A program made the position numbers and the translations under genes. Under the pieces are notes generated by a model. It saw only the letters and a list, made by a program, of their open reading frames with translations. It did no database searches and was not told the origin of the DNA. From Mytilus edulis (taxonomy: Eukaryota), in the NCBI RefSeq assembly GCF_963676685.1, contig NC_092347.1, forward strand, positions 90,086,001 to 90,150,000: 64,000 nucleotides of DNA. The letters run 5' to 3'. Positions 19,799-50,300 of this stretch are shown here, in pieces (the first letter of the stretch is position 1; the number at the start of each line of letters is the position of its first letter).

Positions 19799-20382
19799 TT
19801 ACTGTCGCTTTTTAAAAATGTCATCAGTGCAATTATTATACTTTGTAATTGATGCTAGTGACTTTAAGGAAGTTAAATCGTCATCGTCAACATAAAACAT
19901 AAAGCTAGGATCGTTTAAAACACCAGCAAGGTTATCCTTGTCACAATCTTTCCCTGCTGCTACGCCAAAGATGTGGATGTCTTGTTGTTTTGATAATTGA
20001 ATCTCCAGATCGATTTCATCAAGATTGTTCCATCTCGCGTTTGAGAATAACACAACGAGATTTCGTGATGAGTTGAATAAGTTACTTTCTCGTATATGTT
20101 TTAAAGCATGACTTGTATTTGAAATTGTTTTCCCTATATCAATCCTGACCTTCAATGCAGCGGAAATTAATTCATCGATATCAGCAGACCATGATAAAGT
20201 AAACACTTGTTCCAATTCGTCCGAATATGAAAACATGCCTATGTTTGCATCAGGATTGTAAGTTTTAATTTGTTCTACTGTTCGTCGGATTGCTGTGAGA
20301 CGCTTGTTGTAATCTTCTCTTGTTTGGTTATTGTTTGTATCCAGAAGGAGAATGACCTGTGATTCAGTTACCAGAGAACAGT
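19799..20382 (-). CDS. Terminal exon: second VWA domain with a degenerate MIDAS (DTNNN)
   Basis: Acceptor tctttacag|AC TGT. Reads [19 protein letters not shown]...IGMFSYSD...[10 protein letters not shown]...LVVLFSNA...IFGVAAG...[10 protein letters not shown], a VWA beta/alpha pattern. Confidence 0.85.
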
Positions 20383-23300
20383 CTGTAAAGATAAAACAAC
20401 AGACATGTGAAGGTGGTTAAAAAATACCAATGTTAAAAACAATAAATTCATAGAATCGACAAATTTTTATGTCTAAATATGTATATTTTTTATCCTATAA
20501 TGATGAATTTGTTGGTTTATTTCAGGATAAAGTTATTCAGAAAGTAACAAAAATAAAAAATTTGGTGATTCCAAAGACCGAATAAGAAACCTTTGAATAG
20601 CCGAACCTCAATGTTATGGGCTACGAAAAGATACAAAAAATATACTAAACTATAGAATAAAGAGATTTGTATGATTGTCAATGAGTCAACTATCCACGTC
20701 ATAAATATGACAGTTATTTTTTTATCCTTTTTTATTTGACCTATTTGCCTCTGTTAAAGGAGTCTCTGTTTTGAATGTGCCTTGAACTTTTGGTATTTTT
20801 TGTAAGTTTACTTTTTATCAATAGAGTCCAAATGACGTGTATTTTAGGAGTTTCCAAATATAGATAAAAGTAACGGCAACCATCAATGAGCGAAACTCAT
20901 AAATTACATTGATAAACAGAAATTTTCCAGATTTAATCATCTTATTACAGTACCTAACTCTTTAAAAAGTCAGGAATGCATTGAAAGAAACTCAATTTTC
21001 TCCAATAAATGTACGTTCTGTTCTTTTTTCAAAATGAATCATTATATAATGTAAGACGGCTGTTATCATTAACTATTCTAAGCGTCAGCTATGTATTAAA
21101 GACATTAAAGCAGTTACAGTCAAAACTAATATAACGGCTACAGCTATGTATACTATTAATTGAAAATCTGACTTTTTAGTTCACCCTCTTGATATGCATG
21201 ACCCAATGTAGTAATATCTTCGCATTTTGAAGCTCAATTCATAGGTCAGCTTTCATATAAGTTCGTTATGACCTTAGAATATTAGTAATAATCTGATAAA
21301 ATTCATTCCTACTTGAATATTAATAATAATCTGATAAAAATTCATTCCTACTTGAATATAAGTAACAATCTGATAAAAATTCATTCCCACTTGAATATTA
21401 ATAACAATCTGATAAAAATTCATTCCTACTTGAATATTAGTAACAATCTGATAAAAAAAATCTGTTCTCTCTTTTTTATTATAAGCCAAACATGCGTATT
21501 ACATCCAGACGGAAAACATTTGTTAAAAAAATTACTTGAAAGTGAAAAAAGACAATCAATGTCTTAAATTTACAGAAATAACAAATTAATAAATACTATA
21601 TCACGAACGCGTATGTTGTAGGGCTTTCTATACCCAACTCGTAATTGAAAGTATCTAAAAACAGGAAGTACTAGGTGTCTAGCAGATAGAAAATAAGGTA
21701 TAGACGTCATTATTTATTACTGTTCTTCCTCTGACCAAATTCCATTTCATTCTATTTTGAAGTTATTGAGAAAAGTGAGTCGACAAATTTAAAGGTGCCT
21801 TCAACATATTGAAAGATTCAAAGTATCGACAAACAGTACATTTGTGAGTCATAATGATTGTTCATCAGATCCTTAAAGAGCTCATGCTTTAAAACTAATC
21901 ACTGTGAAGCTACTGACCCAATATAAAGAATTTTTGTCATTTTAAGTAGTACCGGAGAAATGTGTGACAGAAAAAGGTGTTGAACGAACAGACGGACTGG
22001 TGGACGGATAAGGTAAATACCGTATATCAATCCCATCACCAGTTTTGATAATAAAACAGCGAAAATTAAGGTCAAGTACATGTGTTTTAGTATCTAAGAT
22101 ACTAATGGAGAAACATATCGCTTTAAAAAATAAAAACTTTCCAGAAACTAATAAATTACATCAGAAATGTCAATACTTCAGTCTATTCCAAAGAAAGAAT
22201 ACTTTAATATCCTTACATTTGGTGCTGTTGTTGTATTGCCACACAACTACAATTTTTAGCGTTAACAGGAAAGAGTATGTGCTGTTAGGGTTAAATATTA
22301 TCAGTATTAAAGTACACAAAATGATGAAGGTTGATAGTGAAATCGTTGTGAAATACTTATTACCACACTGCTTTTCATACTTCAGTTTCTGAAAATGTAA
22401 ATTCTTTCATTTCCTGTTTTTGTTGGTGTTTAGATTTTTGTCTCACTTATACATGTTATATATATTCCTCATCACCTTTTATTGGTGTTTTTATAAAAAC
22501 AAAATGTGTCAAACATGTTTCATTATAATTATATTTTGAAATTGATCAATTGTATTTTATCTAATTATTTGGTCGACTGTTTTAAAACTTTCAAATTTCT
22601 TTCTTTTTTCCTCAATGAAATTATGAACAGATATATCATGTTAAGGAGGGGTATTTGCGAAAAATAGCAGTCGAGAGAATTTTAAATTTCGCGAGCCGTA
22701 AGTCGAGGGAAATTCTTTCTCAAGACTCGCAAATACCCCTCAAGAACATGCTATATCTGTTTAATTACACCGAATGTTAATGTTTAAAAACGCATTGATG
22801 ATCGTGACGTTACAAGCGTCCAGTCGGATAGAGTATTTCTTTTGGCAAATACCACGGCAGAGAGGGTAAAAAAGGCATATCCTTTTTGCATATACCCCGG
22901 CGGCGTTTAAAAATTAACGATATTCATTTGATAACAGTAAATTGGTGAAAAATACACTGGCTATCAACCAATTAAAACCCAGGATTCTTACATAAGGTGT
23001 AATTACAAACATACTATCCCTTAAGTAATATATAATCCAATAATGTCTTCTGTGTTTAATGATTACATGGGGAAAGTATTTCGAGTTAAAGTAAAGGTAT
23101 GTCAAGCAAAGCTCATACAATGTTTCCCTTAGCCCTTTTCGGAGTCCTTGGCATTATACTGGGAAGATTATGAGAAAGATTCTTTAAGTGGATATAATGT
23201 GTACTGTCATAAACAGATGTGACAAGGTCAATGGCGTGGCAAAGTAAACCCCAAAAATTAGGTGGATAAAGTAAAACAATATAAAGTGTAAAAGTATTTC

Positions 23301-47300: not shown

Positions 47301-50300
47301 TTACTTCGAACAATTTCGAAAAAATAAAACTTGTGTATAGACTTTTTATACGTGTATAGGCCATTTACAGCCTTCGAGGACAGGCTTTCAAAAGCATACA
47401 CTTCCCCATAAATTTCCAATGTTACAATGTTCATGTTACTAAGTCACAGTGTTCGATGACGTAATTTTCGCTGATTGACCTCGGGTCAACCCATGTAACG
47501 TGTACTCATTCATAAATGTACTATTCCTGGGGTCTCAGAGGTCAAATCTTGAACAGTACTGCAAGTATATATACTACGTTCAAGCTTGATACATCTCTGA
47601 ATTTGATTTTTGATTGAATATTTGACACAACGTTGGTTTCTGACACAATAAATACGGTCAATTAACTGACACTGTACATTGTGTTCATTTAAAGGAGAAC
47701 AGGTTTGTATTTATAACAAAACCTTCGATTTGATAAAGACAAATTATGAATAAGACTGCCTGAACATGGGGAAACATTACTAAAATATCTGTACTACCTG
47801 TACAATTGACTGGAACAGTTTCTTTCAAGATGTTGTTTAAAATATCATCCAAAAATGATGTGATAAATGTGTAATATTGTTTCCTTGAAATCGACAACAT
47901 CTCTGAGTAGGATATAGACTGACCAACAGCTACAGTGATAATTCGCCCACCAATGGAGTTTATTAAAGTAGCCTCATTAACGGCGTCATTACTGTCTGTT
48001 GATAAACCATCGTAGAGCAATATTATGTAGCTAGATATTCTACGTGATCCAAATGATCTGTTGGTTAACATCTGTAAAATCACAGAAATCTTACATTTTG
48101 AATAGCTGTGTCATAAACGAAAACAATTAATGAAAATAATTCTATCTCACTTTTATGATATAAGAAGCAAATGTTTAAAGTTAATTAATCTATCTTCTCA
48201 ATTTCCTTCATTATTCAATTATCCTTATCGCTTCAATCTTCTTAACATCATGTTCAAGCATAAAAGACCATCGAAATAAATATGAAAATTATTTTATGGA
48301 ACAGATTTTATTTATTGTATATGAGTACATGAGACGTGGTAAGACATTATTACAGATATTCATGTTTGCAAAACAATTCGCTTTAACAAATGAAGGCAAC
48401 AATAGTATACCGCTGTTTGAGATTAAGAAAAAAACTAATCTGGGTTACAAACTAAAACTGAGGGAAACGCATTACCTATAAAAGGAGAACAACGACACAA
48501 CAGAAACTCAACATTAAAATGTAACACACACAGAAACGAACTATGATGTAACAATGGACATTTTCTTTAGCTGGTACAGGACATTTTAAGAAAAAATGCA
48601 GGGTTGAACCGGGTTTTGTGGCATGCCAAACATCCCGCTTTGATGGAAATGTCAAATATAACATTAAAATGTCAACATTACATGACAGGACTAAAATACA
48701 AATAAATGGGAGATAATATAGGACAGAGAAACACACGCATAATAGTTAAAAAAAAGTTACCAGGTTTAAAATCTAATACGCCAGACGTGCGATTCGTCCA
48801 TACAAGACTAACCAGTGACGCTCATATGAAAAAAGTTCGGAAGCCAAAACAAGTACAAAGTTGAAGAGCACTGGGGACTAAAAGTTCCAAAAAGTTGTGC
48901 CCAATACGGTTAGGTTTTTCTGCCTGGGATAAGAACATCCTTATTATTTAGAATAATTCATACTTTTGCAAACAGTAAATTTTATAAAATGACTATATAC
49001 ATGTAATAGATGTACATGATAAAACCGAAGTGGTGACCAACTACAGAATAAAAACGGATACATTACATAAAACAACCTTATCCAGCACATCAAAATACAC
49101 AGCTAAGTTAGCCAAAGCCTCAACGCACAAAGTGACGTCACATTTGAAACAGGTGATAGGGGCCGACTTAATCGTCAGTGAGGGGAGAGTTTTTGCTGCT
49201 GTTGAAGGCCTCACTGTTACTTTGAGATAAATAAAATCAATAACAGCGCTGTTATTTTGGGTTTTTTTTGTGTTGTGTGCTGTGCATGTACTGATTATGT
49301 GTCATAGATGAATACCAATATCATTTCTTTTTTGTATTAGAGATAACCGATAATGTTAACTTGTTGCAAACACTTTACGCCCATATAGGCCAATTGCTTA
49401 ATTACAGTTATGTTAATTATTTATTTACCTCTTTTGCTTTCTTTAACGCTTGAGATGTAAATGTGGCACCATTTCCCGCTTTGATATGCTGAAGTTTAGA
49501 AATCATACCAGAAGTAGATTTATAATCATCAAGATCAAAAAGTACATTAGCATCAAAATCATATGTGATAACACCCACTTGAAAGTCATCTTTACCAATG
49601 GGTGTTCTTTTAATAAATTCAGTTATAAAACTTATACTTCTGTTGATATTTGTTTCCAAGCTAGAAGATGTGTCAATAATAAATACGATGTCTGCAGGAC
49701 CAGGTCTGCAATCTGCAAAACACATCATACCACATCTTCTTTTTTATGTAGACACTTGAAACATCATTTAGCTATATTTATCTAGTTTATTTTGGTTATA
49801 TATACCATGCGAATGAATCGTTTATTGAATTAAACAATCAATAATAAGACTCTTTCTTTGATATTTTAAAAAGAATAGAAACAGTTTTGAAGGAATGGAA
49901 ACGGAAACACGTTTTCCAATTAAAAAAAACCGATATTTTTGTTTATATTAGCCACCAATAAATGATCACATCAATATGAAAGGTCTTCAATACATCAATT
50001 TCATACTCGTAATGAATTGCAACTGGCATGTTTTTGTTAGTTTCAATATCAATACAACTGAAATATATTAGGTCACCACGCTAAATATTTTACGTGTATT
50101 GTGTTTTACATAAATTAGGGATTAACTTTTCTTGGTTTAACTGATTTCCATTTGTCATTTCGGGACCTTTCATTGTTTGGTGTAATTTGGGATAAGGGTT
50201 TTTCTTAGTTCTATAATCTGATAGTTTCATTGGCATTCATATCAACTCTTCTCATGTTTATTTGTATGCTCAATTTACATTTCAATAACAAAACGTCAAA

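What the first reader, a model, noticed from the sequence alone, without database searches (positions are those of the whole stretch)
19799..48071. An expanding array of three Gly/Tyr/Trp-rich genes nested antisense inside the last intron of an EGF-VWA matrix gene
Seen: VWA1 ends ...VPVNCT G|gt at 47798 in phase 1 with no stop. The only compatible VWA exon I can find starts at 20382 (ag|AC TGT), giving an NCT-DC linker and a complete ~748-aa protein. The 27.4-kb intron between them holds three complete opposite-strand genes, each with its own TATA, non-coding exon and coding exon. The duplication unit carries both intron sequence next to VWA2 and a Gly-rich gene, so the adjacency predates the duplication. 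Inference: host and guests are all secreted matrix proteins, so their overlapping transcription may be mutually exclusive or coordinated. Automated annotation would probably split the host gene.
Basis: partly seen in the sequence, partly recalled or inferred. Interest (0 to 1): 0.75.

Follow-up and report, generated by a model that had tools for sequence, protein, structure and literature searches.

The report
Mussel intron hosting three antisense genes
In a blue-mussel genome, a gene for an EGF and von Willebrand-domain protein is spliced across a 27-kb last intron holding three opposite-strand copies of a small glycine-rich gene, which likely arrived as one inserted block and then duplicated in place; this is a clear but ordinary case of nested genes.

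Summary
The nesting is real. Contigs from two RNA-type runs join host position 47798 to 20382. All 11 paralogues keep a phase-1 intron there, but only 0.5-3.3 kb long. The 13 exons give a 748-aa EGF7-VWA-VWA protein. Three intact Gly/Tyr/Trp-rich genes lie antisense in the 27,415-bp intron.

A fourth, free-standing copy 4.6 Mb away shares collinear DNA with both ends of the intron, leaving about 0.8-0.95 kb of host intron, the paralogues' typical size. The likely history is insertion of a 7.5-kb one-gene block, then two tandem duplications.

RefSeq already joins the host (XP_071170195.1 equals the last 674 aa). Nothing supports co-regulation: guest exons had no depth in 4 of 4 runs, three of which hold the host transcript. 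Guest transcription was not seen at all, so the guests are predicted genes.

It matches a known kind (Sgs4 and ng genes in the Drosophila dunce intron). The reconstructable history and the uncharacterised guest family are the modest novelty.

The parts
63367..63406 (-). Host exon 1 (ATG, likely signal peptide); predicted
   Evidence: GT donor, open frame, aligns by eye with the N-termini of P0001 and P0005; not on a laid stretch
62804..62961 (-). Host exon 2 (pro-like segment with RNKR, Cys-rich start); predicted, missing from the RefSeq model
   Evidence: no Pfam family above cut-off
61087..61201 (-). Host exon 3 (Cys-rich); the RefSeq model starts inside it
51906..57954 (-). Seven phase-1 EGF exons (57954-57847, lacking two Cys; 57359-57246; 56143-56030; 55316-55203; 54492-54379; 53675-53562; 52019-51906)
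   Evidence: 7 Pfam EGF stretches in P0002; RNA joints 52019/53562 and 49712/51906
49429..49712 (-). VWA1 exon a (DTSSS MIDAS start)
   Evidence: PF00092 E 2e-17; in RNA contigs
47798..48071 (-). VWA1 exon b, phase-1 donor
20383..47797 (-). Last host intron, 27,415 bp, spliced out
   Evidence: contigs of runs X1 and X3
19799..20382 (-). VWA2 terminal coding exon (DTNNN, degenerate MIDAS); transcript reaches at least 19765
   Evidence: PF00092 E 2.6e-14
25037..27624 (+). Guest 1: TATA 25037, non-coding exon to 25093, exon 2 from 27162, CDS 27169-27624 (151 aa; mature 60% G, 12% Y, 9% W)
   Evidence: no RNA depth in 4 of 4 runs
33539..37252 (+). Guest 2: TATA 33539, non-coding exon to 33595, exon 2 from 36739, CDS 36746-37252 (168 aa)
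42237..44984 (+). Guest 3: TATA 42237, non-coding exon to 42293, exon 2 from 44459, CDS 44466-44984 (172 aa)
21277..29485 (.). Tandem unit 1
   Evidence: 92-95% identical to unit 2; 4-5% substitutions
29481..39104 (.). Tandem unit 2; 5-bp microhomology at the unit 1/2 joint
40176..45598 (.). Older unit 3 (about 20% diverged from units 1/2)
21035..21176 (.). Acceptor-side edge of the block shared with the free-standing copy at C4:85.55 Mb (clear from 21176; the extension to 21035 is marginal, score 56 vs shuffle maximum 54)
47447..47647 (.). Donor-side edge of the shared block (69%, collinear; about 90 of its 200 bp lie in a genome-wide repeat)
15255..15837 (-). Duplicate VWA2 exon with a 1-bp deletion (pseudo-exon), in a duplicate block 15169-18127; not used in the contigs seen

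Best explanation
This is a nested-gene locus: the EGF7-VWA-VWA host is spliced across a 27.4-kb last intron that holds three antisense copies of a small Gly/Tyr/Trp-rich gene, which likely entered as one 7.5-kb block and then duplicated in tandem. The ancestral intron was probably about 0.9 kb. A copy of the locus now at C4:85.55 Mb landed in it, antisense, bringing its own TATA promoter and two exons (inferred). One older duplication gave guest 3 versus guests 1/2, and a recent microhomology-mediated one gave guests 1 and 2. The antisense orientation hides the guests' splice and polyadenylation signals from the host, so the host tolerates them. Guest and host are most likely expressed in different tissues or stages, and the nesting is an accident of insertion rather than a regulatory device (inferred). 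The guests are predicted secreted, insoluble structural proteins that work like shematrin or KRMP Gly/Tyr domains (Tyr cross-linking, inferred); the host is a predicted secreted adhesion or matrix-binding protein with one intact MIDAS.
For: Shown: splice in 2 of 3 host-positive contig runs with long arms on both sides; phase-1 Cys-x-G|gt intron in 11 of 11 paralogues, gaps 500-3297 bp, median 975; joined form in RefSeq proteins of four Mytilus species. Fourth copy with no host-type exon in 60 kb around it, sharing non-repetitive collinear DNA from window 21176 and a collinear match at 47447-47647 that is the best of two hits, both beside that copy, in 295 kb of 34 fetched loci; left-over host intron 150 + 652-793 bp. 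Unit divergences 4-5% and about 20%; microhomology at the joint. Four of four ORFs intact despite different repeat counts; first 90 coding bases differ at 1-5 sites against 18-23% across the aligned mostly non-coding blocks of the older pairs. Related genes also form a tandem trio at C3:87.5 Mb with no host-type exon in the 3-kb loci around them. Guest exons silent in 3 of 3 host-positive runs. In Drosophila 71% of nested genes are antisense, most arise by insertion of duplicates, and their expression is no more correlated with the host than random pairs (PMC3814207).
Against: Distances do not root the copies and lean the other way: copy 4 is slightly closer to guests 1/2 (0.18) than guest 3 is (0.20), smallest pair in 917 of 1000 column bootstraps, which under a clock fits export from the intron. 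The donor-side match overlaps a repeat with 477 candidates in the genome, and the targeted genome search of 47250-47580 did not list the C4:85.55 site among its 8 matches. No guest transcript was seen in any run, so function and tissue are untested; contigs and the human-likeness filter can drop records. In mammals strongly correlated host/nested pairs outnumber strongly anti-correlated ones (PMC11694760, passages). Signal peptides were judged by eye.
Confidence: 0.66

Rival explanations
1. Same nesting, opposite direction: the guest family entered the intron from an unknown source, and the copy at C4:85.55 Mb was later exported from the intron.
For: Copy 4 is marginally closer to guests 1/2 than guest 3 is; it carries DNA matching both ends of the intron.
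Against: It needs the export to have cut at two points that happen to leave 0.8-0.95 kb, the paralogues' typical intron size. No VWA exon remnant lies beside copy 4. The distances are near star-like and unrooted.
Confidence: 0.17
2. The nesting is functional: host and guests build the same matrix, and overlapping antisense transcription makes them alternate or co-express, with guest copy number under selection.
For: Both look secreted; guests are under constraint and expanded to three; the arrangement likely predates the edulis/trossulus split; correlated nested pairs exist in mammals.
Against: 11 of 11 paralogues lack guests; copy 4 stands without a host; relatives triplicate elsewhere too; no guest RNA in host-positive samples; no binding or shared tissue was shown.
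Confidence: 0.12
3. Part of the array is an assembly artefact: units 1 and 2 are two haplotypes placed in tandem, so there are two nested guests, not three.
For: Units 1 and 2 differ by only 4-5% plus indels, and mussels are highly heterozygous (recalled). No DNA reads were laid on the joint.
Against: No N gap; the joint is a new end-to-start adjacency with 5-bp microhomology, not a long overlap; unit 2 starts with 200 bp that unit 1 lacks. Nesting of at least one guest is unaffected.
Confidence: 0.05

Closest known systems
Drosophila dunce intron holding Sgs4 and the four ng ('nested'/'new glue') genes (PMC10835880, passages)
   Same: Several small, secreted, repeat-rich duplicated genes inside one intron of an unrelated host; the guest family also duplicates at other loci.
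   Different: Here the host itself is a predicted secreted protein, all guests are antisense paralogues of one family, and a probable source locus with matching block edges survives.
Nested protein-coding genes in general (PMC3814207, first quarter of text and passages; PMC5174743, abstract)
   Same: Short young duplicates inserted in an intron, mostly antisense, intron-bearing; 9.5% of D. melanogaster genes and about 2.7% in human and C. elegans are in nested structures.
   Different: The intron here was probably short before the insertion and became long through the guests; no mollusc case turned up (none of the 25 listed papers contains 'nested genes').
Shematrins and KRMPs of Pinctada, and shematrin-like M. 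edulis mantle transcripts (PMC3896809, section 16 and passages)
   Same: Signal peptide, GnY repeats followed by a hydrophobic residue, short basic and Tyr-ending C-terminus.
   Different: Trp sits inside the repeat (9%); the C-terminus is KGKGSYY, not RKKKY/RKYKY; no Lys/Trp domain; the paper's isotig 17419 motif is (GGGYGGYGI)n, not this repeat.
M. californianus 'keratin-associated protein 19-2-like' XP_052087834.1 (P0011) and its relatives at C3:87.5 Mb and C10:56.36 Mb
   Same: Same signal-peptide pattern and C-x-GKGCG start (one has GKDCG); three of the four genomic relatives end in K-K-G-x-Y.
   Different: Different repeat units; the name is automatic and says nothing of function; I found no characterisation.
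RefSeq 'matrilin-1-like' XP_076105129.1 and uncharacterized XP_071170195.1; Mytilus PTMP1 (PDB 4cn8); collagen VI alpha 3 VWA
   Same: XP_071170195.1 is letter for letter the last 674 aa of the host; VWA similarity to PTMP1 E 7.5e-27 and to collagen VI E 4.6e-45.
   Different: Domain order EGF7-VWA-VWA is not the matrilin order (VWA-EGFn-VWA-coiled coil, recalled); PTMP1 has no EGF array (recalled); VWA2 lacks a canonical MIDAS.

Membership tests
Nested (intronic) protein-coding genes | Host exons on both sides are joined in one mRNA | tested here: met
   Contigs of X1 and X3
Nested (intronic) protein-coding genes | Guest genes lie wholly within that intron, with no exon overlap | tested here: met
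   TATA-to-stop spans 25037-44984, inside 20383-47797; 3' ends not mapped
Nested (intronic) protein-coding genes | Guests are transcribed | tested here: inconclusive
   No depth on guest 1 exon 1 or the first 100 bases of exon 2 in 4 of 4 runs; intact ORFs and conserved promoters argue for function
Shematrin | Signal peptide | tested here: inconclusive
   Hydrophobic 18-aa N-terminus by eye; no predictor available
Shematrin | GnY repeats followed by a hydrophobic residue | tested here: met
   9-aa repeat, 27-bp period, 10-11 copies; feature from PMC3896809
Shematrin | RKKKY/RRKKY/RRRKY/IRRKK/PRKKY C-terminal signature | tested here: not met
   All four copies end KGKGSYY
Shematrin | Mantle expression and presence in shell matrix | not testable with these tools
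   Run tissues are coded; no guest RNA seen
KRMP | Lys/Trp-rich domain after the signal peptide and RKYKY-type end | tested here: not met
   Only LKCWGKGC precedes the repeats
Matrilin | VWA-EGFn-VWA order with C-terminal coiled coil (recalled) | tested here: not met
   EGF7-VWA-VWA, ending about 20 aa after the Pfam VWA2 match
MIDAS-bearing VWA domain | DxSxS...T...D | tested here: met
   Met in VWA1 (DTSSS, T, D); not met in VWA2 (DTNNN, T, N); motif recalled

The most novel reading that the evidence does not exclude
A structural-protein gene jumped into a 1-kb intron of a matrix-adhesion gene and was kept and amplified because antisense transcription turns the pair into a switch: secretory cells lay down the VWA/EGF adhesive layer or the Gly/Tyr/Trp cross-linked layer, never both, and guest copy number tunes the material.
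Probability: 0.1. Interest if true: 0.65.

Novelty: new member of a known kind. Interest (0 to 1): 0.33.

Why it matters
It is a well-preserved record of how a nested cluster forms: probable source copy, block edges, a 30-fold intron expansion and two datable duplications are all readable, with 11 un-nested host paralogues and one un-nested guest as built-in controls. That makes transcriptional interference between nested genes directly testable in a mollusc. It also flags a Mytilus family of small Gly/Tyr-rich secreted proteins (at least 8 loci here) for which my searches found no characterisation. It does not reveal a new mechanism, and the host junction is already annotated.

Tried and rejected
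Alternative VWA exon or early end inside the intron: tblastn finds none. Read-through to the stop near 47685: no listed contig shows it; the extra depth in bin 47582-47975 of X1 is explained by a genome-wide repeat at 47561-47673, though 1334 pieces were not displayed, so a minor isoform is not excluded. Splicing to the duplicate exon at 15837: the X1 contig lacks both of its diagnostic differences and the X2 and X3 pieces have no gaps; the duplicate itself was not on a laid stretch. Raw runs X21 and X24 had almost no depth on host exons. Guest homologue searches: none by word index, whole protein or residues 1-42; profile search gave 5 hits, of which only P0011 shares the N-terminus and the others look compositional; Atlas hits under 0.8; no Pfam family; exact guest sequences not in the collection (3, re-trimmed guest 2 and copy 4), so synteny by accession order could not be read. 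A Gla-like reading of the host N-terminus (recalled resemblance) found no Pfam or Atlas support. A periostracin identity (recalled composition) could not be checked: one search gave one unrelated paper. A foot-protein paper was not held. Supplements of PMC3896809: 9 of 16 files searched, no match to the guest; 3 held no text and 4 were not fetched, and these may show isotigs that bear on guest identity. Earlier scan findings: nothing in 3 look-ups. No structure or complex was predicted: no binding is claimed and the guest is low-complexity.
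Full report
Setting. The window is G000:C4:90086001-90150000 in a 1.37-Gb genome, about 32% G+C with no N. Protein matches place it in Mytilus: the host's last 674 aa equal RefSeq M. edulis XP_071170195.1 letter for letter. That record may be modelled on the same DNA, so it bears on annotation, not on the truth of the junction.

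Host. Thirteen minus-strand exons from 63406 to 19799 give 2247 bases and 748 aa with a single stop: a likely signal and pro-like segment with RNKR, a Cys-rich part, seven phase-1 EGF exons (the first lacks two Cys), VWA1 in two exons and VWA2 in one. VWA1 has a full MIDAS and VWA2 does not (motif recalled). The first three exons are predicted from similarity to M. coruscus and M. californianus proteins; RefSeq starts 74 aa later.

The junction. Of 24 runs listed I laid five. In X1 one 1124-nt contig (depth 11.1) runs through 52019-51906, 49712-49429 and 48071-47798 (letters 74-745). A record of the same length and depth covers 20387-20004 at letters 741-1124 with no difference, and its loose end reads as the VWA1b end at 29 of 30 letters. 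In X3 a 1033-nt contig (depth 10.8) does the same, reaching 19765 with 7 differences. The 5-letter overlap is sequence shared by both intron ends. X1 and X3 are RNA by the tool's guess, but their contigs lack introns. X2 (RNA on record) covers VWA2 with only 12 letters beyond the acceptor and is not counted. Raw runs X21 and X24 had almost no host depth. Independently, 11 of 11 paralogues on C2, C4, C6 and C12 have a phase-1 intron at the same Cys-x-G|gt position, 500-3297 bp long, median 975. Five of five full-length homologues found contain the joined form.

Guests. Three plus-strand genes have a TATA box, a short non-coding exon, a 2-3-kb intron and one coding exon. The proteins are 151, 168 and 172 aa: an 18-aa hydrophobic start, [10 protein letters not shown], 10-11 nine-residue repeats and [10 protein letters not shown]; mature parts are 60-62% Gly, 11-12% Tyr, 9% Trp. 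A fourth intact copy lies at C4:85.548 Mb with no host-type exon in the 60 kb fetched; nesting in some unrelated long intron is not excluded. The 300-bp promoter is 95, 87 and 83% identical between guest 1 and the other copies, and the first 90 coding bases differ at 1-5 sites, so the genes look functional. No transcript was seen: guest 1's exon 1 and the first 100 bases of exon 2 had zero depth in X1, X2, X3 and X24. Guests 2 and 3 differ at 1-2 of the first 90 coding bases and should have been laid as well. Contigs show presence rather than absence and a filter drops some records, so this is weak evidence for separate tissues. A profile search found one relative with the same N-terminus, M. 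californianus XP_052087834.1, which led to a tandem trio at C3:87.5 Mb and a Trp-bearing gene at C10:56.36 Mb. The guests work like shematrin or KRMP Gly/Tyr domains but fail both C-terminal signatures (PMC3896809, section 16).

History. Units 1 (21277-29485) and 2 (29481-39104) differ by 4-5% and join through a 5-bp microhomology; unit 3 is about 20% diverged. Copy 4 shares non-repetitive collinear DNA with the window from 21176 onward (the extension to 21035 is marginal). It also has a collinear 69% match to 47447-47647, the best of two hits in 295 kb of 34 fetched loci, both beside copy 4. That match overlaps a common repeat and was not listed by the genome search of 47250-47580. Removing the shared block leaves 150 + 652-793 bp of host intron, the paralogues' usual size. 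I read this as insertion of a 7.5-kb one-gene block followed by tandem growth. Against it, pairwise distances over 866 ungapped columns (g1/2-g4 0.18, g1/2-g3 0.20, g3-g4 0.23) are unrooted and lean to export. A duplicate VWA2 exon at 15255-15837 carries a 1-bp deletion, is 93-100% like the live copy over 19997-21280 but 71-89% at its 3' end, and carries the block's edge. At 4 of the 11 residues where the two differ in the last 60 aa, the live copy matches M. trossulus while the duplicate matches all three more distant sequences; the other 7 sites are mixed. This suggests the insertion predates the edulis/trossulus split (inference).

Mechanism and rivals. Shown: the splice, the arrangement, the duplications. 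Inferred: direction of transfer, secretion, structural role, separate expression. Antisense nesting of intron-bearing duplicates with uncorrelated expression is the common pattern in Drosophila (PMC3814207, first quarter and passages; PMC5174743, abstract); mammals show more correlated pairs (PMC11694760, passages). The un-nested paralogues of both host and guest argue that neither needs the other. I give 0.66 to insertion with incidental nesting, 0.17 to export, 0.12 to functional coupling and 0.05 to a false duplication of units 1/2.

Novelty. The closest known case is Sgs4 with four ng genes in the dunce intron (PMC10835880, passages). I found no report of this locus or of the guest repeat in the listings (only the top 20-30 rows were seen where more matched; subscription journals are mostly missing). 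Passages of PMC8194122, PMC4203926 and PMC5549309 mention VWA/EGF or glycine-rich transcripts in mantle, gut, gill and foot without sequences that tie them to these genes. Verdict: real, new member of a known kind, interest 0.33.

Noticed in passing
window 8669-11350, minus strand: A second, unrelated small Gly/Trp-rich gene downstream of the host, same strand: TATA-like site near 11380, signal exon MLKLFIFALLVGVATANYWG at 9821-9760, Gly/Trp/Arg exon near 8855-8705; further exons not mapped.
   Followed up: partly
window 3264-6208, plus strand: Exons of a C-type lectin gene (PF00059 E 2.3e-7 at 5876-6208; further candidate exons at 3264-3605 and 4714-4941).
   Followed up: no
window 50409-51726: Retroelement-like fragment (235-aa frame at 50737-51441, RT-like by eye, no Pfam hit) in the EGF7-VWA1 intron; abundant in RNA runs and in other loci.
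   Followed up: no
window 15169-18127: Old duplicate of the VWA2 exon with a recent conversion-like tract to the live copy and a 1-bp deletion; M. coruscus and M. californianus protein models run two tandem host copies together (P0001, P0005).
   Followed up: yes
window 61087-63406: The RefSeq model of the host lacks 74 N-terminal residues, including the likely signal peptide and an RNKR site followed by an unassigned Cys-rich segment.
   Followed up: partly
G000 C4:61.29-61.35 Mb, C12:43.19-43.23 Mb, C6:60.47-60.54 Mb, C6:84.72 Mb, C2:12.5 and 79.07 Mb: At least 11 paralogues with the same VWA1b-VWA2 exon pair, mostly in tandem clusters; no characterisation found.
   Followed up: partly
L031-L033 (C3:87.5 Mb), L035 (C10:56.36 Mb): Further members of the small Gly/Tyr family sharing the signal peptide and Cys-x-GKGCG-type start.
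   Followed up: partly
window 18163-18652; 21277-21457 and 29651-29836; 45696-46122: Degenerate 21-bp array, a 39-bp array copied with units 1/2, and a 162-bp array.
   Followed up: no
L023:1213-1857, minus strand: Pro/Ser/Thr-rich repeat frame about 21 kb beyond the window's right end.
   Followed up: no
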